NCBI GenBank assembly: GCA_018817505.1 | Contig: JAHITR010000083.1 | Coordinates: 52 to 64,051, forward strand | Origin: Candidatus Bipolaricaulota bacterium | Lineage (GTDB): Bacteria > Bipolaricaulota > Bipolaricaulia > UBA7950 > UBA9294 | DNA length: 64,000 bases | Direction: 5' to 3' | In this document: positions 3,720 to 9,393 of the stretch, piece by piece | How the letters are laid out: the number at the start of each line of letters is the position of its first letter | Position numbering within the stretch: the stretch's first letter is position 1 | Program-made: the position numbers and the translations under genes | Notes under the pieces: generated by a model | Database searches by the model: none | Seen by the model: the letters and a program-made list of their open reading frames with translations, nothing else | Told to the model about the DNA's origin: nothing

Positions 3720-4784
3720 ATGGCGCGATTCTTTCACAAGAGTTCGGAGAAGGCAGGACAGCTGCCCGGTACGCCCGTCTACGTCGGGAGATCCAAGTCT
3801 GAGGCCGTGGCTATCGAGACATACGAGTTCGATGGCGAGGCCTTGGATTGTGCTGAGGCCGTGTCATTGGACGACGTACAAGCTCCGCAGGATTCCGACA
3901 AGACGTTGTGGGTCAACGTCGATGGCGTTCACGACGTCGATCTCGTGCAAGAGATGGGTACCCGTTTTGGATTGCATCCATTGGCCATAGAAGACATCGC
4001 CCACACAGGACAACGGCCGAAAGTAGAGGATTATGGAAGTCATGCGCTTCTCGTACTTCGCATGCTTCGATGGAACGAGTCAGACGACCAGATTGACGAC
4101 GAGCAGGTTAGCCTCGCCATAGGATCTTCGTGGGTCTTGTCGTTTCAGGAGCGCAAAGGCGATGTCTTTGATCCGATTCGTGATCGACTCAAGACGAATC
4201 GAGGACGCATTCGCAAGATGGGCGCAGATTACCTGTTGTATGCACTGGTAGATGCCATTGTCGACCATTACTTCGTGATCCTAGAGACATTGGGAGACCG
4301 GATTGAGGTGCTGGGCGAGCATATGGCAGAGGATCCGAACAAGAAGGACCTGACATCCATTCGCCATCTCAAACGAGAGCTGCTGTTCATGCGAAAGTCG
4401 GTATGGCCACTGCGCGAAGTGCTCAGTTCGTTGCAGCGGGATGGCGCAGTTTCGATTCACGAGGAGACGGCTCCCTATTTTCGCGACGTCTATGATCACA
4501 CCATTCAAATCATCGACACCGTAGAGACGTTCCGCGATATGGTTTCGGGGCTGATGGACCTCTATCTCTCCAGCATCAGCAATCGAATGAACGAAGTCAT
4601 GAAGGTGCTGACGATCATCGCCACCATCTTCATCCCGCTGTCGTTCGTGGCCGGACTCTATGGCATGAATTTTGACTGGATGCCCGAGCTGCACTGGCGT
4701 TACGGGTACTTCTGGGCGCTGGGGCTGATGACGTCGATCGGTGGCGGGATGCTTGTCTATTTCAGACGCCGCCATTGGTTTTAA
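3720..4784 (+). CDS. corA: magnesium/cobalt transporter CorA
   Basis: C-terminal two TM helices with YGMNFD (GMN motif). About 350 aa. Confidence 0.85.
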   Translation: MARFFHKSSEKAGQLPGTPVYVGRSKSEAVAIETYEFDGEALDCAEAVSLDDVQAPQDSDKTLWVNVDGVHDVDLVQEMGTRFGLHPLAIEDIAHTGQRPKVEDYGSHALLVLRMLRWNESDDQIDDEQVSLAIGSSWVLSFQERKGDVFDPIRDRLKTNRGRIRKMGADYLLYALVDAIVDHYFVILETLGDRIEVLGEHMAEDPNKKDLTSIRHLKRELLFMRKSVWPLREVLSSLQRDGAVSIHEETAPYFRDVYDHTIQIIDTVETFRDMVSGLMDLYLSSISNRMNEVMKVLTIIATIFIPLSFVAGLYGMNFDWMPELHWRYGYFWALGLMTSIGGGMLVYFRRRHWF

Positions 4785-4853
4785 ATGCGCGCGAGGGCTG
4801 GTGTTTTCAGTCAACCATGAAGCATTCTCACTCTCGTGCCCTGCCAGTCCCTG

Positions 4854-5507
4854 TCACTCCCACTCCACTTCAGTGACACCTTCGAGGTTGGAGAGGCTAT
4901 CGACTACGCTCATCGCATCAATGGCAACTCGCGTTCGTAGGCGAAAGGTGACTCGAGTCGTGCGATCCTCACTCCTGGTCATGAGCGAATGTCCGACCAC
5001 GCGAAAGCCTGCATTCGATAGGACCTCGTGACTCCTCTTCTCCGATACGGCCGTGCTGTTACCTTGTGTCCATACCACAGCCGTGTAGTAGCTCACACTC
5101 GGCAATTTCCGCACAACTCTCGCAAGCAGCGTCAACACAGCGACTGACAGTCCAGAGCTAGCGGCCGCAAGCACAAACAGGCCCTGCCCGACAAGAATTC
5201 CAATCGTCGCGGCAAACCAAATGCAAGCAGCCGTCGTGAGGCCGCGCACGACGTCATGAGATTTGACGATGACCCCCGCCCCCAGGAAGCCCACTCCGGT
5301 CACAATTCCGGCAACGGCCCGCCCGGGATCAACACTTCCGGTAAACGATTCGCCGACCATCATGACCAACGTGGCTCCCATGCACACGAGGATATGCGTC
5401 CTGAGACCTGCAGGACGTCCATGCATCTGTCTTTCCAAGCCGATCAGTCCGCCCAACAGGATCGACACAAGCAGCTTCCCAAGAGAAGCAAATTCCAATT
5501 CAAACAC
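4854..5507 (-). CDS. mgtC: MgtC/SapB family membrane protein
   Basis: LEFASLGKLLVSILLGGLIGLERQ N-terminal signature. GTG start at 5507 preceded by AAGGAGG with a 6-nt spacer. The ORF-caller's upstream ATG extension is unsupported. Confidence 0.8.
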   Translation of the reverse strand: MFELEFASLGKLLVSILLGGLIGLERQMHGRPAGLRTHILVCMGATLVMMVGESFTGSVDPGRAVAGIVTGVGFLGAGVIVKSHDVVRGLTTAACIWFAATIGILVGQGLFVLAAASSGLSVAVLTLLARVVRKLPSVSYYTAVVWTQGNSTAVSEKRSHEVLSNAGFRVVGHSLMTRSEDRTTRVTFRLRTRVAIDAMSVVDSLSNLEGVTEVEWE

Positions 5508-5559
5508 GAGGTTCCTCCTTAGCCACAGCACGTGTTGCCAAACGAAAACGTAGCCAACC

Positions 5560-6870
5560 CTACTGCCCTTCGCCTGGGATGATTGCGGCTGGCAATTCGC
5601 AATCATTCGTTGTCCGAAGCGTGGCAATGCCGATCGCTGCGGCTACAAGAAAGACGACAGATACGAGTAGTGAAACGTGATAGCCGACCCCCCGGGAGAG
5701 CGCCCCGGCGCAGATTCCGGCAGCGGATGTACTGATACCCGCGACAGCAGTATAGCTTCCCAATGCCAATCCGCGGTTTTCAGGCTTCGCAAATCGAGCC
5801 GCCAACGCAACGCCGCTCAATTGAAAAACGGCCCACGTGGCTCCGACAAGCATCATAAATGGAAGCACAGCCCACCAGGCAATGTGAACACCCGACCCTA
5901 GAGCGACAGCAGCGCCAATGAACAGGGATGACCGAATCAGCAGCGCCCCAACGTGCGCTCGCTCCCCGCCACGGCTTCTCACTCGCTGGATTGCGAACGG
6001 ATACGTGATCACGATGCCTCCGTGAAGAGCCACATAGCAGAAAAAAACCAGGGAGGCAGAGAACTCAAGCTGTTGCGATAGAACGAAAGGCAGGGGGACA
6101 GCAAAGAACGCGATTCCAGTGAACGCGAAGAACGTGCTCAGCAAGAACACGCGAACTCGTCTGCTAAGGGATTTCAGACGGCTTGGAGAAAGCCGGTGGT
6201 ACAAGTGAAGCGGACTGAACTTCCACGCTTCGGGAAGCAGATTCCCTTCAGCAATGGCAATTCCACGGAAACGCCGTCGAGTGAACGTTGCCGCGACGGG
6301 AGTGATCGTTGCCGCGGCAATTCCAGAAGCTACAAACGCAATCAAGGCGAGCAAGCCGAGCAACAGGCTGATTCCCGTTGGAATTGAGGTTCGTGCAAGA
6401 GTCCATCCGATAATCGTGCCCCCGAGAATCAAGCCTGACAGCCATCCAAATGCCCCGGACTGATTCAGCGAACCAATGCGCGACTCCCACAGAGTTTCAT
6501 CTGCCCCCTCAATGACAAGCAATACGGCCACAGAAGCATTGGCAACCCAGAAAAAGCTCAGTGCCGCGTTGTAGACCAGCAGGCCCGCAAAGGACCGCGT
6601 CAACGCGAGTCCAACATGAGCGAACCCAACCATCACATAACTCGCGATCACGAAGATCTTCCGCCGATGGGCAGCGTCAGAAAGACGTCCCCAGATGAGA
6701 CTGCCAACCACTGCAGCCAAACTTCCCAGTGTGGCGGCCAGGCCAAGCTGCTGCGCATCAAGATGAAATCCCAGACTGATCCTCAGTGGAATCAGCACAG
6801 AAGACATCCCCATGACGAGGTTCGCCAGAATCAGCGACACGTACCACCGTTGGAATCCCAGAAGCCGCAT
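5560..6870 (-). CDS. MFS transporter
   Basis: 12 predicted TM helices with MFS-like loop motifs. Upstream of mgtC, likely co-transcribed. Confidence 0.7.
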   Translation of the reverse strand: MRLLGFQRWYVSLILANLVMGMSSVLIPLRISLGFHLDAQQLGLAATLGSLAAVVGSLIWGRLSDAAHRRKIFVIASYVMVGFAHVGLALTRSFAGLLVYNAALSFFWVANASVAVLLVIEGADETLWESRIGSLNQSGAFGWLSGLILGGTIIGWTLARTSIPTGISLLLGLLALIAFVASGIAAATITPVAATFTRRRFRGIAIAEGNLLPEAWKFSPLHLYHRLSPSRLKSLSRRVRVFLLSTFFAFTGIAFFAVPLPFVLSQQLEFSASLVFFCYVALHGGIVITYPFAIQRVRSRGGERAHVGALLIRSSLFIGAAVALGSGVHIAWWAVLPFMMLVGATWAVFQLSGVALAARFAKPENRGLALGSYTAVAGISTSAAGICAGALSRGVGYHVSLLVSVVFLVAAAIGIATLRTTNDCELPAAIIPGEGQ

Positions 6871-7090
6871 GCACATCACAGTCCATTCGTGTCAGATGTC
6901 AAGCTCTCGCGAACACAATAGGCAACTCAAGCAAGTCGAGCAAGCTCTCTCTCATAGCAGGAAAGCTAGCCCTTGGTATTGTACGGATTTCTTCAGTCAT
7001 CTTGGGATTCAGGCAGAGGATGCTTGATCAGTTTCCGATGACTATTGATAACCAAAGATGTGGCGGCATGGGCATGCTGCAAACGGGGGC

Positions 7091-7126
7091 CAAAAAAACA
7101 AGCGACCGCTCTGCAGGGCGGTCGCT
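7091..7126 (-). terminator. rho-independent terminator (10-11 bp GC stem AGCGACCGCC/GGCGGTCGCT followed by a T7 tract on the minus strand)
   Basis: Perfect stem at 7101-7126 with a 4-6 nt loop. The minus-strand run TGTTTTTTTG lies at 7100-7091. The plus strand also has TGATTTTTCC after the stem, so it may be bidirectional. Confidence 0.8.
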
Positions 7127-7143
7127 GTGATTTTTCCATGGTG

Positions 7144-7197
7144 TTACTTCTTGGTGGGCTTGCTGGGGCCCTTGGTTACGTTCTTCTTGGTCGTCAT
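7144..7197 (-). CDS. 17-aa Lys/Thr-rich micro-ORF (MTTKKNVTKGPSKPTKK)
   Basis: ATG preceded by GGAGGTG (8-nt spacer). TAA stop immediately followed by an intrinsic terminator. Co-oriented 46 nt downstream of the Zn-ribbon gene. Confidence 0.45.
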   Translation of the reverse strand: MTTKKNVTKGPSKPTKK

Positions 7198-7243
7198 GTG
7201 AGCCACCTCCTTCCCTTGGTTAGGACAGGATGTAATGCGTATA

Positions 7244-7474
7244 TTAATTAAGCCGTCTGGCAAAATTCGCTCCAAAGCCCGAAGTTTCTTCGATATCCTT
7301 CTCACTCCTAGGATCCAATCTCTCCAGGTACTGGTTCTGTCGGCCATGCCCTATCAGCCACTCGCCACAACTTGGGCACACTCCAAGATCATCCCTCTCA
7401 GGACGAAAACGTATGGCCGTCTTACATGATGGGCAGACCGTCCTTCGATTCGTCCCAGGTCGCGTCTTGTTCAT
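7244..7474 (-). CDS. zinc-ribbon domain protein (CPSC-x16-CPSCG)
   Basis: Two CPxC knuckles spaced about 17 aa apart (FmdB-like zinc-ribbon geometry). AAGGAG SD. Lower GC than surroundings. Confidence 0.5.
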   Translation of the reverse strand: MNKTRPGTNRRTVCPSCKTAIRFRPERDDLGVCPSCGEWLIGHGRQNQYLERLDPRSEKDIEETSGFGANFARRLN

Positions 7475-7489
7475 CATTCACTCCTTTGC

Positions 7490-7560
7490 CTAACTTGTCA
7501 ATTTCCTAATTGACTAATTTGACAAGCAGCATTATACTTCAATCATTCCCCTTGTCAAGA
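7490..7560 (+). promoter_or_regulatory. divergent promoter/operator: TTGACT(7510-7515)-N17-TATACT(7533-7538) for the ArsR gene; TTGTCAA/TTGACAA half-sites at 7495-7501, 7519-7525 and 7552-7558
   Basis: Near-consensus sigma70 -35/-10 with 17-nt spacing. The perfect 7-bp inverted repeat overlaps the -35, and a third copy lies downstream of the -10. Confidence 0.6.
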
Positions 7561-7577
7561 GGGTCCCTCAAAAGGAG

Positions 7578-7868
7578 ATGGACATGCCAATCAAGACTCA
7601 CTCGGGCTTCTTCAAACTGCTGTCTTCACGAACAAGAATCAGGATTCTAAGGCTTCTTCTGGAGAACGATGATCTGACGGTCGACAACTTGGCATCGCGT
7701 TTGGAAGTCAGCGTCCCCACGATTTCACGTCATCTACAGCTCTTGCGTATTCAGGATCTTGTCACCTACAAGCAGGACGCGCAGATCCGCTATTACCATG
7801 TGAACAAGGAAGAGATCATTCGGGGGATCGGCTCGTTCCTCGATGATTTGGGTATCACCCTAACCTAA
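7578..7868 (+). CDS. ArsR/SmtB family transcriptional regulator (no obvious metal-binding Cys/His sites)
   Basis: Winged-HTH LASRLEVSVPTISRHLQLLRIQDLV typical of the ArsR family. AAGGAG SD. Confidence 0.75.
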   Translation: MDMPIKTHSGFFKLLSSRTRIRILRLLLENDDLTVDNLASRLEVSVPTISRHLQLLRIQDLVTYKQDAQIRYYHVNKEEIIRGIGSFLDDLGITLT

Positions 7869-7953
7869 TGGCGGGGCCGGGTTCCCTACGAAGGACATCG
7901 TCAGGGCGTTGACCTGCTGTTACACACAATCGTTTATGCAACGCGACGTCTTT

Positions 7954-9393
7954 TCACTCGGCTTTGTGTTCTCCAAGCCGAAACAGCTTCCCGGGATTGA
8001 GAATGCCATGCGGATCAAGCGCATCTTTTATCGCCTTCATGACGCGCAATTCGTCGCGTTTGGATTGCGCGAGAATGTCATTCTTCAGAAAGCCTACGCC
8101 ATGCTCCCCGCTGACTGCCCCCCCAAGTTCGACCGCCTTGAGCGCGATTTCGGTAAGTAGTTGCCTGCGCTGGACCTCCCACTGCGCATCCGTTCGATCG
8201 TTTGGTTTGAGTGGATGGGGATGGATGTTGCCGTCAGCTACGTGGCCAGCGCATGGAATCTCTGCTCGATACTTCTGGGCCATGCCGCGGATGAATCGCA
8301 TCATGGTCGGAATCTCAGTGGATGGGACAACAAAGTCCCCGCCTTCGACGGTCGGGTCAATCACGCGAAGGGCTTCCAAGCAATTGCGTCGTATTGACCA
8401 GATCTTCTCTGAAGCCCATGGATTGTCTGCCACAAAGACTTCGAGTGCACCGGCTTCCATGCACGCTTCACCCACAGGGCGGTAGGTGTCAAGCAGTGAC
8501 TCCTTGCCGGCTGCCTCGACTTGAATGATCAGGTAGGCCTCTGCGTCGTCAACTTGACTGACAACATTTCCTGTGTACGCCATGGCGTGTCGCAGGGACG
8601 CACCATCCATGAATTCGATGGCCACGGGCATACTTTGAGATGCCATGATGGCTCGTGGGACAGCAGCCACTGCGTCCTCAGTTGTGGCAAAGGGCACAAG
8701 CAGATCAGCCGTCGGTCCAGGTTGCGGGATCAGTCGAAGGAAAATCTTGGTGATGAGGCCCAATGTGCCTTCAGATCCGACCATCAATCGAAGCAAACTA
8801 TATCCGCTGGAATCCTTGCGGCGCTTGCCGCCCAGTTGCAGAACCTCACCTGATGCCAGCACGACCTCAAGTCCGAGCACATGGGCATCCGTCGCACCGT
8901 ACTTGATCACCTTGGCTCCGCCTGCGTTGCAGGCCACATTCCCGCCGATGAAGCTCGATTGAACACTCATCGGATATCCAGCGTAGAACAAGCCATCCTC
9001 GGCCACGCGGAGACAAAGGTCGTTGGTGACCACCCCTGGTTCAACCACAGCCACCATATTCTCTGTGTCGATCTCAAGGATCGCGGACATCTTCTCAAAC
9101 GACAAAACCACACCCCCAAACAGGGGGATGGCCCCCCCCGCCAGTCCACTGCCTGCCCCCCTCGGAGTCAGCGGGATGTGCCGACGATTGCAGTACTCGG
9201 CGAGGCGACTGATCTGATCCGTGTTCTGTGGCTTGACGACGATGTCAGGTTTGGCTGAGTGTCCCGACCCTGATTCATCCCTGCTATAGGGGGCCAGTCG
9301 ATCCGCATCATCGAATAGAATGTTGTTCTCGCCCACAATGCGAGCCAGCGTCATCATGTCTTCGCGGGTCACGGAACTGAATCGATCAACCAC
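7954..9393 (-). CDS. FAD-linked oxidase (GlcD/D-lactate dehydrogenase family), LctD-like
   Basis: PCMH-type FAD-binding domain with RGAGSGLAGG. Start placed at GTG about 9393 (AGGAGG SD) or ATG 9357. The ORF-caller N-terminus overlaps etfA by 240 nt. Confidence 0.7.
   Translation of the reverse strand: MVDRFSSVTREDMMTLARIVGENNILFDDADRLAPYSRDESGSGHSAKPDIVVKPQNTDQISRLAEYCNRRHIPLTPRGAGSGLAGGAIPLFGGVVLSFEKMSAILEIDTENMVAVVEPGVVTNDLCLRVAEDGLFYAGYPMSVQSSFIGGNVACNAGGAKVIKYGATDAHVLGLEVVLASGEVLQLGGKRRKDSSGYSLLRLMVGSEGTLGLITKIFLRLIPQPGPTADLLVPFATTEDAVAAVPRAIMASQSMPVAIEFMDGASLRHAMAYTGNVVSQVDDAEAYLIIQVEAAGKESLLDTYRPVGEACMEAGALEVFVADNPWASEKIWSIRRNCLEALRVIDPTVEGGDFVVPSTEIPTMMRFIRGMAQKYRAEIPCAGHVADGNIHPHPLKPNDRTDAQWEVQRRQLLTEIALKAVELGGAVSGEHGVGFLKNDILAQSKRDELRVMKAIKDALDPHGILNPGKLFRLGEHKAE

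What the first reader, a model, noticed from the sequence alone, without database searches (positions are those of the whole stretch)
7091..7577. Low-GC ArsR-operated mini-operon: Zn-ribbon protein plus a 17-aa Lys/Thr-rich micro-ORF with its own terminator
The region from about 7140 to 7580 is clearly lower in GC than its surroundings. It contains an ArsR-family gene with a near-consensus promoter (TTGACT-N17-TATACT). Three TTGTCAA/TTGACAA half-sites form a perfect palindrome over the -35, with an extra copy downstream. Divergently transcribed are a 76-aa CPSC...CPSCG zinc-ribbon protein and, 46 nt further, a micro-ORF MTTKKNVTKGPSKPTKK. The micro-ORF has GGAGGTG 8 nt upstream of its ATG. Its TAA is followed directly by a GC-rich 10-bp hairpin plus T7 tract, a textbook intrinsic terminator. 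The signal quality suggests the peptide is genuinely expressed. I cannot match it to any known small-protein family. The ArsR lacks the usual metal-sensing Cys/His sites, so its inducer is unclear.
Basis: partly seen in the sequence, partly recalled or inferred. Interest (0 to 1): 0.6.

Follow-up and report, generated by a model that had tools for sequence, protein, structure and literature searches.

The report
Conserved lysine-rich microprotein stress operon
The 17-codon reading frame is a real, unannotated gene for a tiny, strongly positively charged peptide that uncultured Bipolaricaulota-type bacteria keep next to a cysteine-free ArsR-type regulator, usually at the head of their hsp20-groES-groEL chaperone operon and beside magnesium channels.

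Summary
The micro-ORF is real. I fetched about 90 loci through the ArsR orthologue, from metagenomes and from MAGs (metagenome-assembled genomes). Almost every locus with enough upstream DNA carries the same unit: GGAGGTGG, 5-6 nt, ATG or GTG, 16-28 Lys/Thr/Pro/Ser/Ala codons, then a strong hairpin. The set holds 58 distinct peptides with a mean charge of +7.7. The frame shows purifying selection (pN/pS 0.54, against about 1 in the other frames). The unit survives where the Zn-ribbon gene is absent or decayed, and it is tandemly duplicated in four loci.

Its -10 overlaps the arsR -10.

The proposed TTGTCAA-N17-TTGACAA operator is not conserved. What is conserved is an array of 8-nt-phased boxes.

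In most relatives the same transcript appears to run on into hsp20-groES-groEL, and arsR is followed by corA. The window copy has lost that link. It ends in a true U-tract terminator ahead of MFS-MgtC genes.

Best reading: a stress or heat-shock-type operon under a non-metal ArsR-like repressor, whose microprotein acts as a soluble polycation. That function is inferred, not shown.

The parts
7584..7868 (+). ArsR/SmtB-family winged-helix regulator, 94 aa, with no Cys and no canonical metal site
   Evidence: Pfam HTH_5 4e-11. NCBIfam HTH_metalloreg 73 bits, above the cutoff of 55. Alignment A4 shows no Cys and an invariant PT(I/V)SRHLQLLR recognition helix. Closest solved relatives are HlyU, NolR and SmtB. 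Its 90%-identity cluster (representative P0004, 100% identical) also holds MBU1049511.1, Candidatus Bipolaricaulota.
7510..7538 (+). arsR promoter, TTGACT-N17-TATACT
   Evidence: 10 of 12 matches. The -35, read as TAGTCAA on the other strand, and the -10 are conserved in all 64 distinct loci aligned.
7531..7558 (-). Perfect sigma-70 promoter TTGACA-N16-TATAAT for the Zn-ribbon/micro-ORF transcript; its -10 overlaps the arsR -10
   Evidence: 12 of 12 matches. CTC-TTGACAAG-N16-(A)GTATAAT is nearly invariant in 64 distinct loci. It is the only such promoter in the 64-kb window.
7486..7525 (-). Candidate operator / 5'UTR array of five 8-nt-phased boxes: TTGTCAAA|TTAGTCAA|TTAGGAAA|TTGACAAG|TTAGGCAA
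   Evidence: The alignment of 59 distinct loci gives the consensus cTGCCCAn|nTAGTCAA|nTGCGCAA|nTnnnCAA|nCTGCGCAA, followed by GGAG. Six loci carry an exact 8-nt insertion. Boxes 3 and 5 change together between clades. Binding has not been shown.
7244..7474 (-). 76-aa Zn-ribbon protein (CPSC...CPSCGEWL) with a disordered tail; the core is LysW-like
   Evidence: AF2 core pLDDT is about 70-84. The top Foldseek PDB hits are LysW chains, with probability 1.0 and E about 0.02. hhalign against LysW gives probability 88%. The gene is absent or decayed in several orthologous loci.
7208..7230 (-). Imperfect pyrimidine/purine hairpin (TCCT.GTCC-loop-GGGA.AGGA) that covers the 5' part of the micro-ORF SD
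   Evidence: RNAfold predicts it in most units. However, its energy is close to the shuffled controls, and the pair counts are no better than the slid controls. Status: inconclusive.
7204..7210 (-). Shine-Dalgarno GGAGGTG of the micro-ORF, 6 nt before the ATG
   Evidence: GAGGTG is invariant in 60 aligned units.
7144..7197 (-). Micro-ORF encoding MTTKKNVTKGPSKPTKK (17 aa, net charge +7); member of a new microprotein family
   Evidence: 61 distinct homologous units and 58 distinct peptides of 16-28 aa. pN/pS is 0.54 against 1.05 and 0.87 in the other frames. No Pfam or NCBIfam match.
7092..7126 (-). Intrinsic terminator: 9-bp GC stem AGCGACCGC/GCGGTCGCT, loop CCTGCAGA, then TG + T7
   Evidence: z = -3.4. 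A strong hairpin follows every one of the 61 units. The U tract is seen only in the window's low-GC clade.
3720..6879 (.). Context genes: CorA (3720-4784, +), MgtC-family (4854-5627, -), MFS transporter (5560-6879, -)
   Evidence: Pfam and NCBIfam. CorA, MgtC and MFS genes recur beside the module in different arrangements.

Best explanation
This is the window's copy of a conserved stress locus of Bipolaricaulota-type bacteria.

Regulator. A Cys-free ArsR/SmtB-fold winged-helix protein is transcribed from TTGACT-N17-TATACT. It is inferred to repress itself and a back-to-back, perfect-consensus promoter on the other strand. The inferred binding site is the conserved 8-nt-phased box array, which lies over its own -35 and in the first ~45 nt of the divergent transcript.

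Output. When the repressor is released, the divergent promoter, two perfect SD sequences and a 3' hairpin should give a burst of two products. One is a LysW-like Zn-ribbon protein. The other is a 17-aa peptide of charge +7, one of a family of 16-28 aa peptides containing about 36% Lys. In most relatives the same transcript appears to continue through the hairpin, which there lacks a U tract, into hsp20-(x)-groES-groEL, and arsR is co-directional with corA. The signal is therefore most likely heat or proteotoxic stress, or a related cation stress.

Window copy. The chaperone genes are no longer downstream, and the hairpin has acquired a T7 tract. The unit is now a self-contained two-gene operon ahead of MFS-MgtC.

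Peptide function. The microprotein is translated and acts as a soluble, disordered polycation. My preferred mechanism is charge neutralisation and stabilisation of RNA, ribosomes or DNA when Mg2+ or temperature is limiting. This would run in parallel with the CorA/MgtC Mg2+ genes and with the protein chaperones.

What is shown (comparatively):
- the gene is real and under purifying selection;
- the promoter architecture is conserved;
- the module is linked to hsp20-groESL and to corA.

What is inferred:
- repression by the ArsR protein;
- the inducing signal;
- co-transcription with the chaperone genes;
- the peptide's molecular target.
For: The micro-ORF is real:
- The unit is present in essentially every ArsR-orthologue locus with enough upstream DNA. 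There is one clear exception, L082.
- GAGGTG and the start codon are invariant in 60 aligned units.
- Synonymous ACN, AAR, CCN and GGN changes and Ser AGC/TCC switches are visible in the alignment.
- pN/pS is 0.54 over 21 independent pairs: 62.3 synonymous changes over 278 sites against 110.7 non-synonymous over 910 sites. My own two-proportion test gives z of about 4.2. The other two frames give about 1.
- The composition is K/T/P/S/A with almost no hydrophobic or acidic residues.
- The unit is retained where the Zn-ribbon gene is absent (L013, L065) or decayed (L069, L072, L093).
- SD-ORF-hairpin units are tandemly duplicated in L039, L066, L051 and L077.
- In L007 the Zn-ribbon stop and the micro-ORF start overlap as ATGA.

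It is not a leader peptide:
- It is intact in L007, L009, L019 and L020, where the next gene is convergent.

Promoters:
- Both divergent promoters are conserved in 64 distinct loci.
- They are the only sigma-70-like sites between groES and corA in L011 and L038.

Stress link:
- Hsp20 or GroES lies directly downstream on the same strand in about 25 distinct loci. This includes the distant clade with 52-57% ArsR identity.
- CorA lies 11-167 nt after arsR in about 13 distinct loci.
- No CIRCE (HrcA operator) or HAIR (HspR operator) is found in any locus.
- Mg2+ transport is already linked to survival at high temperature in Salmonella: O'Connor et al. 2009, as cited in PMC7136397.

Window terminator:
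-, and z = -3.4.
Against: - No expression, binding or peptide data exist. All evidence is comparative, from metagenome contigs of one lineage.
- The operator cannot be pinned down. The recognition helix is invariant, while the box sequences differ between clades.
- The hsp20-groESL link is absent from the window itself. The window copy may therefore respond to something else.
- Co-transcription through the hairpin is inferred only from the lack of consensus promoters.
- pN/pS of 0.54 is only moderate. Purine-rich AAG runs could also be under RNA-level constraint.
- Short alternative frames are often open too.
- The polycation/nucleic-acid function has no direct support. CorA and MgtC neighbourhood could partly be inherited synteny.
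- A conserved His6 plus acidic residues leave a non-canonical metal site possible.
Confidence: 0.6

Rival explanations
1. Leader peptide / translation-coupled attenuator. The micro-ORF exists only so that a ribosome terminating 9-17 nt before the hairpin modulates hairpin formation. That would set read-through into hsp20-groESL, or into MFS-MgtC in the window. The peptide itself would have no function.
For: - The ORF is always followed at a short, fairly constant distance by a strong hairpin.
- In most loci stress genes follow on the same strand with no promoter of their own.
- Leader ORFs precede Mg2+ transporter genes in enterobacteria (mgtL, mgtP; from my own knowledge).
Against: - The unit is intact where the next gene is convergent: L007, L009, L019 and L020.
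- The whole SD-ORF-hairpin unit is tandemly duplicated in four loci.
- No alternative antiterminator pairing was seen.
- Peptide composition and N- and C-terminal motifs are conserved, with pN/pS below 1.
- There is no link to lysine metabolism.
Confidence: 0.13
2. Divalent-metal homeostasis module of the SmtB/SmtA type. The ArsR protein would sense Co2+, Ni2+, Zn2+ or Mg2+ through a non-canonical site. It would control CorA and a small metal-binding Zn-ribbon protein. The chaperone neighbourhood would be secondary.
For: - ArsR/SmtB family membership.
- Divergent arrangement with a small 4-Cys protein, as in smtB-smtA (from my own knowledge).
- corA lies immediately downstream of arsR in about 13 distinct loci, and MgtC or CorA is nearby elsewhere.
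- His6 is nearly invariant, and conserved Asp/Glu residues are present.
Against: - There is no Cys and no alpha3N, alpha5 or alpha5c ligand set.
- The Zn ribbon has only its four structural Cys, and it is dispensable in several loci.
- The most constant partners of the regulator are the micro-ORF and hsp20, not a transporter.
Confidence: 0.15
3. The conserved element is an RNA, not a protein. It would be a purine-rich, hairpin-terminated small RNA or mRNA-stabilising cassette, possibly recognised by a protein through the conserved GGAGCGG...CCGCTCC stem and CCCTGCAG loop. The ORF would be incidental or only dual-function.
For: - Stem and loop sequences of the 3' hairpin are conserved more than a generic terminator needs.
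- The region just upstream of the SD is also conserved.
- Short alternative frames are frequently open.
Against: - A perfect SD lies at optimal spacing from an invariant start codon.
- There is an excess of third-position substitutions (46:50:77), and pN/pS is below 1 only in this frame.
- Ser AGC/TCC switches occur.
- Amino-acid composition is conserved across highly diverged nucleotide sequences.
- There is no Rfam match.
Confidence: 0.07
4. An acidic/basic two-component pair. The Zn-ribbon protein, through its acidic C-terminal segment, would sequester or deliver the basic peptide, in an antidote/toxin-like or carrier/cargo-like relationship.
For: - The two genes are adjacent, and translationally coupled in L007.
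- Most Zn-ribbon homologues end in an acidic FDESDEWE..L.DEI helix.
- The LysW-like fold resembles a protein that works through an acidic surface.
- In the L084 clade the Zn-ribbon protein itself carries a basic TKKSKNAAK tail.
Against: - The peptide occurs without any Zn-ribbon gene in L013 and L065.
- The window's Zn-ribbon tail is not acidic. It ends ...FGANFARRLN.
Confidence: 0.05

Closest known systems
SmtB-SmtA and other ArsR/SmtB autoregulated divergent loci
   Same: A small ArsR/SmtB-fold regulator is transcribed divergently from a small Cys-containing protein gene, across a compact promoter/operator region.
   Different: The regulator has no Cys and no alpha3N or alpha5 metal ligands. 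The partner is a 4-Cys Zn ribbon, not a metallothionein. The conserved cargo is a Lys-rich microprotein and, in most relatives, hsp20-groESL.
Non-metal ArsR-family regulators (HlyU, NolR, SdpR, BigR)
   Same: HlyU and NolR are the best solved sequence relatives (E 1e-14 to 1e-12). Like them, this protein lacks the classical metal sites.
   Different: Identity is low. No thiol switch is possible because there is no Cys. The target genes are different.
Bacterial and archaeal heat-shock repressor systems (HrcA-CIRCE, HspR-HAIR, CtsR, RheA, archaeal Phr)
   Same: A dedicated repressor gene sits next to hsp20/groESL-type genes, which are driven from a strong vegetative-type promoter with an operator close to the transcription start. 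This would be negative control of chaperone genes.
   Different: The protein fold is ArsR/SmtB. No CIRCE or HAIR element is present. The operon starts with a Zn-ribbon gene and a microprotein gene. The regulator is co-transcribed with corA. The heat response itself is untested.
LysW/ArgW amino-group carrier proteins
   Same: The Zn-ribbon core is the top structural match, and the profile match has probability 88%. Most homologues have an acidic C-terminal extension.
   Different: The window protein has no C-terminal EDWGE or terminal Glu. No LysX/ATP-grasp or lysine/arginine biosynthesis genes are nearby. The genomic context is a stress locus.
Very small basic ribosome-associated proteins (bTHX, bL37, bS22) and H1-like S/T-P-K-K tails
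   Same: Similar length and charge, and xPxK / TPKAA-type motifs (comparison from my own knowledge).
   Different: No sequence-family match. The peptide is encoded in a repressor-controlled stress operon rather than with ribosomal genes. Ribosome or DNA binding is untested.
Small proteins and leader ORFs of Mg2+ transport loci (MgtS, MgtR, mgtL, mgtP)
   Same: A tiny ORF is genetically linked to CorA/MgtC-type genes.
   Different: MgtS and MgtR are hydrophobic membrane peptides, whereas this peptide is fully hydrophilic. Unlike mgtL and mgtP, it persists where there is no downstream gene to attenuate.

Membership tests
ArsR/SmtB family transcription factors | Winged helix-turn-helix HTH_5 domain of about 90-120 aa | tested here: met
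   Pfam PF01022 4e-11. NCBIfam NF033788 at 73.1 bits, above the cutoff of 55. PDB profile hits to HlyU, NolR, SmtB and CzrA.
ArsR/SmtB family transcription factors | Metal- or thiol-sensing site (alpha3/alpha3N Cys, alpha5 Asp/His/His/Glu, or reactive Cys pair) | tested here: not met
   Alignment A4 of 11 orthologues has no Cys at all. The only conserved His residues are His6 and His50, the latter in the recognition helix.
ArsR/SmtB family transcription factors | Binds an operator in its own or a divergent promoter and is released by an effector | not testable with these tools
   Only a conserved box array between the divergent promoters can be shown.
Intrinsic (Rho-independent) terminator | GC-rich stem-loop immediately followed by a U tract | tested here: met
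   Window 7126..7092 has a 9-bp stem with 7 GC pairs, then TG + T7, with z = -3.4. The hairpins printed for most high-GC relatives are not followed by a U tract.
Leader-peptide transcription attenuator | Regulated structural genes downstream on the same strand, and an alternative antiterminator pairing | tested here: not met
   In L007, L009, L019 and L020 a convergent corA follows the hairpin. No alternative pairing was evident in the folds.
HrcA-CIRCE / HspR-HAIR heat-shock control | CIRCE (TTAGCACTC-N9-GAGTGCTAA) or HAIR (CTTGAGT-N7-ACTCAAG) operator near the chaperone genes | tested here: not met
   No match in any fetched locus with up to 4 (CIRCE) or up to 2 (HAIR) substitutions.
RNA thermometers (ROSE, fourU, Hsp17-type) | Imperfect hairpin that sequesters the SD, supported by covariation or a family match | tested here: inconclusive
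   A pyrimidine/purine hairpin is predicted in most units. Its energy is close to the shuffles, and the pair counts are no better than the slid registers. No Rfam hit.
LysW/ArgW amino-group carrier protein | Zn-ribbon globular core | tested here: met
   The Foldseek top six hits are all LysW chains, with probability 0.97-1.0. hhalign gives probability 88% over 33 columns.
LysW/ArgW amino-group carrier protein | C-terminal acidic tail ending in Glu (EDWGE) and a neighbouring LysX-type ATP-grasp ligase | tested here: not met
   The window protein ends ...FGANFARRLN. No ATP-grasp gene appears among the called neighbours of L004, L008, L009, L011 or L013.
Annotated small-protein families (Pfam, NCBIfam, including small ribosomal proteins) | Profile match of the peptide | tested here: not met
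   Six homologous peptides of 21-28 aa gave no hit at E up to 1. The 17-aa window peptide is below the tool's 20-aa minimum.

The most novel reading that the evidence does not exclude
The 16-28-aa Lys/Thr/Pro peptides would be a previously unrecognised class of stress effector. On this reading they are a genetically encoded, massively inducible polycation. It would be released from an ArsR-fold heat-shock repressor together with sHsp/GroESL and CorA. It would substitute for, or reinforce, Mg2+ and polyamines in stabilising ribosomes, RNA or DNA at high temperature. Its sequence-conserved 3' hairpin might serve as an autoregulatory or stabilising target. This would also make the ArsR-like protein the master chaperone-gene regulator of Bipolaricaulota, in place of HrcA or HspR.
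Probability: 0.25. Interest if true: 0.85.

Novelty: new variant of a known kind. Interest (0 to 1): 0.62.

Why it matters
- Gene callers never report 17-codon genes, so this family is invisible in every annotated MAG. Yet it is the most constant partner of the regulator. It outlasts the Zn-ribbon gene, and it sits at the head of the main chaperone operon of a candidate phylum that has no cultured model.
- If the inference holds, it gives three testable things:
  - a new microprotein family with an unusually clean comparative signature;
  - a candidate heat-shock regulator of the ArsR fold, acting through a distinctive pair of back-to-back consensus promoters;
  - a genetic link between protein chaperones, Mg2+ channels and a polycationic peptide.
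- That link bears on the long-standing question of how cells protect ribosomes and nucleic acids, not only proteins, during heat or cation stress.
- The promoter/repressor pair is also a compact, potentially very strong inducible expression cassette.

Tried and rejected
- Rfam on the region, on the whole window and on six relatives found nothing at the 5'UTR, the micro-ORF or the hairpin.
- Pfam and NCBIfam on six homologous peptides gave no hits.
- Tandem Repeats Finder on the promoter region returned nothing. The 8-nt phasing is visible only in the multi-locus alignment.
- The SD-sequestering hairpin / RNA-thermometer idea did not hold up. RNAalifold gave -0.45 kcal/mol. Mean energy was -13.6 against -12.3 for shuffles. 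Pair counts were no better than the slid registers. I left it as inconclusive.
- CIRCE and HAIR searches gave no hits.
- A search for further operator-like sites, further strong-SD short ORFs, or hsp20/groESL elsewhere in the window found none.
- My automated scoring of U tracts after the hairpins merged neighbouring stems and was unreliable. The U-tract statements rest on reading the sequences.
- The 67-aa extended ORF (7347..7144) is rejected. The upstream extension is closed by in-frame stops in half of the units, and it overlaps the Zn-ribbon gene.
- ORF openness alone is weak evidence, because short alternative frames are often open too.
- Four literature searches found no description of this module or peptide.
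Distribution in cultured species is therefore unknown.
Full report
**Observation**

Reading both strands of 6600-8300 confirms nearly every sequence feature in the finding.
- An ArsR-family ORF lies at 7578/7584-7868 on the + strand. Pfam HTH_5 scores 4e-11. NCBIfam HTH_metalloreg scores 73 bits against a cutoff of 55.
- A Zn-ribbon ORF lies at 7474/7477..7244 on the - strand.
- The micro-ORF lies 46 nt further on, at 7197..7144, and encodes MTTKKNVTKGPSKPTKK.
- GGAGGTG (7210..7204) sits 6 nt before its ATG.
- A 9-bp GC stem (7126..7101) is followed by TG and T7 (7098..7092). It starts 17 nt after the TAA.
- The 60 nt after the stop codon, which hold this hairpin, fold 3.4 sd better than dinucleotide shuffles.
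- GC of 7140-7580 is 0.488 against 0.552 for the window, the 2nd percentile. Most of the dip comes from the 0.406 intergenic region.
- TTGTCAA (7495-7501), TTGACAA (7519-7525) and TTGTCAA (7552-7558) are all present.
Its -10 overlaps the -10 of the arsR promoter. The third 'half-site' is its -35.
- In the whole 64-kb window this is the only such promoter pair and the only strong-SD (Shine-Dalgarno) short ORF.

**Is the micro-ORF real?**

The Zn-ribbon protein has only three relatives findable by word index. The ArsR protein has many. I used the look-up of encoding contigs, one genome scan and one metagenome scan seeded with an ArsR alignment. Together these gave about 90 loci.

In the DNA upstream of the ArsR orthologue, essentially every locus with enough sequence carries the same unit. 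The unit is (A/G)GAGGTGG, then 5-6 nt, then ATG (GTG in a few), then 16-28 codons, a stop, and a strong hairpin beginning 9-17 nt later. There are 61 distinct units and 58 distinct peptides. Examples:
- MTTKKPASKGPSKPTKK
- MTTKKSTTKGPNKPGTKK
- MATKKSKKSTKKTPKAASKKGR
- MGKTVNKAAKKSPKAAPKKGR
- MGTTQKGPAKPTKKSPKKK
- MRAQTTKKPDKKTPKRPKSGCSK

The composition is K 36%, T 17%, P 11%, S 9.5% and A 9%. Mean net charge is +7.7, with almost no hydrophobic or acidic residues.

Coding signatures:
- Between close relatives the changes are third-position ACN, AAR, CCN and GGN changes. Serine switches between AGC and TCC at a homologous position.
- Over 21 phylogenetically independent pairs, pS is 0.224 and pN is 0.122, so pN/pS is 0.54. 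My own two-proportion test gives z of about 4.2. The other two frames give 1.05 and 0.87.

Arguments for a product rather than a by-product:
- The unit stays intact where the Zn-ribbon gene is absent (L013, L065) or decayed (L069/71, L072, L093).
- The whole SD-ORF-hairpin cassette is tandemly duplicated in L039, L066, L051 and L077.
- In L007 its ATG overlaps the Zn-ribbon stop as ATGA.
- It persists in L007, L009, L019 and L020, where the next gene is convergent, so nothing can be attenuated.

Caveats:
- Short alternative frames are often open too.
- The purifying selection is only moderate.
- One locus, L082, lacks the unit within the DNA available.

No Pfam or NCBIfam family matches six homologous peptides of 21-28 aa. 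No Rfam family matches the region.

**Promoters and operator**

An alignment of 64 distinct intergenic regions shows several elements to be almost invariant. These are CTC-TTGACAAG-N16-(A)GTATAAT, and TAGTCAA, which is the -35 of arsR read on the other strand.

Downstream of the -10 lies an array of 8-nt-phased boxes. The consensus is cTGCCCAn | nTAGTCAA | nTGCGCAA | nTnnnCAA | nCTGCGCAA, followed by GGAG. Six loci carry an exact 8-nt insertion. Boxes 3 and 5 change together between clades: TGCGCAA twice in most loci, TAGRCAA twice in the window's clade. In the window the array reads TTGTCAAA|TTAGTCAA|TTAGGAAA|TTGACAAG|TTAGGCAA (7525..7486, minus strand).

It is not conserved as a palindrome elsewhere. 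The array is the natural operator candidate, because it covers the arsR -35 and the first ~45 nt of the divergent transcript. Its exact logic is unresolved, and binding cannot be tested here.

**Context**

A tblastn map of all loci changes the picture. The dominant arrangement is groEL <- groES <- (x) <- hsp20 <- micro-ORF <- Zn-ribbon <-|-> arsR -> corA.
- Hsp20 or GroES lies directly downstream of the micro-ORF in about 25 distinct loci. This includes the distant clade with 52-57% ArsR identity.
- corA lies 11-167 nt after arsR in about 13 distinct loci.
- In L011 and L038 the divergent pair are the only sigma-70-like promoters between groES and corA.
- In the sequences printed, the hairpins of these high-GC loci are not followed by a U tract.
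- No CIRCE (HrcA operator) or HAIR (HspR operator) is present anywhere.
- Other loci carry an MFS transporter with or without MgtC downstream (window, L006, L008, L004, L016 and others), or a convergent corA.
- The window has CorA at 3720-4784, an MgtC-family gene at 4854-5627 and an MFS gene at 5560-6879. It has no hsp20 or groESL.

The window copy therefore looks like a derived version. The chaperone genes are gone, and the hairpin has become a genuine U-tract terminator.

The window ArsR shares a 90%-identity cluster with MBU1049511.1 from a Candidatus Bipolaricaulota MAG (metagenome-assembled genome); the cluster representative is 100% identical to it. The closest Zn-ribbon homologue is also from that phylum.

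**The proteins**

The ArsR family here has no cysteine and none of the canonical alpha3N or alpha5 ligand sets. Its nearest solved relatives are the non-metal HlyU and NolR, and then SmtB.

The Zn-ribbon model is only moderately confident, with pLDDT 61.6 overall and about 70-84 in the core. Its top six PDB fold matches are all LysW amino-group carrier chains. A profile comparison with T. thermophilus LysW gives probability 88%. The LysW hallmarks are absent: there is no EDWGE tail and no neighbouring ATP-grasp ligase. I therefore call it LysW-like in fold only.

**Mechanism**

I commit to the following model. An ArsR-fold repressor holds down both back-to-back promoters. On stress it is released. 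The signal is most likely heat or proteotoxic stress, possibly cation stress. A consensus promoter, perfect SDs and a stabilising or terminating hairpin then give a burst of the Zn-ribbon protein and the polycationic microprotein. In most relatives sHsp and GroES/EL are produced from the same transcript, and CorA from the other strand.

The peptide's charge, its disorder and its xPxK / TPKAA motifs point to nucleic-acid or ribosome binding. So does its repeated pairing with Mg2+ genes, which are linked to survival at high temperature in Salmonella (O'Connor et al. 2009, cited in PMC7136397). It would act as a polycation and complement the protein chaperones.

Gene reality, promoter conservation and gene linkage are shown comparatively. 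Repression, the inducing signal, co-transcription and the peptide's target are inferred.

**Rivals**
- Leader-peptide attenuator. Argued against by the loci with convergent downstream genes and by the tandem duplications.
- SmtB/SmtA-like metal module. Argued against by the missing ligands and by the dispensable Zn ribbon.
- RNA-only element. Argued against by the frame-specific selection, although the conserved stem GGAGCGG...CCGCTCC and loop CCCTGCAG remain unexplained.
- Acidic/basic two-protein pair. Argued against by the loci that have no Zn-ribbon gene.
- SD-sequestering hairpin or RNA thermometer in front of the micro-ORF. This is predicted, but it is not distinguishable from the controls.

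**Novelty and verdict**

Four literature searches and the family libraries give no prior description of this module or peptide. I rate it a new variant of a known kind: a repressor-controlled stress operon that contains a genuinely new microprotein family. Interest is 0.62. The comparative signal is unusually clean, and the chaperone and Mg2+ linkage is striking. The function is untested, and the organisms are uncultured.

Noticed in passing
window 7531-7558 (- strand) and 7510-7538 (+ strand): Back-to-back divergent promoters share overlapping -10 hexamers: TATAAT on one strand and TATACT on the other, offset by 2 bp. The arrangement is conserved in all 64 distinct loci. Only one RNA polymerase could occupy the -10 region at a time.
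   Followed up: partly
L039 191-403, L066 1907-2109, L051 593-856, L077 778-1032 (all - strand): The whole SD-microORF-hairpin cassette is tandemly duplicated. The two copies have diverged. For example, L051 and L077 carry a 26-28-aa variant ending ...TPYRAPSQQGK.
   Followed up: partly
window 7109-7116 (hairpin loop); also L004, L006, L007, L009, L016, L030, L033, L043, L044, L053, L069, L075, L093: The loop of the 3' hairpin carries a conserved (G)CCCTGCAG motif across clades with only 62-75% ArsR identity. In the main clade the stem GGGGAGCGGGC...GCCCGCTCCCC is conserved in sequence. This is more than a generic terminator needs, and I have no explanation for it.
   Followed up: no
L051, L055, L057, L061, L062, L068 (5'UTR between the -10 and the Zn-ribbon SD): There are exact 8-nt insertions, each adding one more CTnnCAAn box to the box array. 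This suggests the array evolves by whole units.
   Followed up: no
L084-L092 (ArsR 52-57% identity): This distant clade has a different operon head: a small membrane-like protein, then one or two LysW-like Zn-ribbon proteins, then the micro-ORF, the hairpin and hsp20. One of the Zn-ribbon proteins has a basic RRRTKKSKNAAKERKNA tail that resembles the microprotein.
   Followed up: no
L007 476-479: The Zn-ribbon stop codon and the micro-ORF start codon overlap as ATGA, which implies translational coupling.
   Followed up: yes
L069/L071, L072, L093, L020: The Zn-ribbon gene is frameshifted, missing, or has its first Cys replaced, while the micro-ORF and the promoters remain intact. Selection therefore appears stronger on the 17-23-aa gene than on the 76-aa gene.
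   Followed up: partly
L011 3572-3994 (- strand): A conserved 140-aa ORF with no Pfam match sits between hsp20 and groES in the L011-type loci.
   Followed up: no
L004 about 4370-4460: The DNA between the terminator and MgtC seems to retain a remnant of the C-terminal end of the MFS gene found at this position in the window and in L008. This suggests a deletion. I did not verify it by alignment.
   Followed up: no
L011 1-162 and 7968-8134: A second ArsR-like gene lies about 5 kb from the module, cut by the locus end. Two tRNA genes lie downstream of corA.
   Followed up: no
window 7101-7143 (+ strand): The same hairpin also scores as terminator-like on the + strand (stem, then GTGATTTTT). No + strand gene ends there, so any bidirectional function is doubtful.
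   Followed up: no
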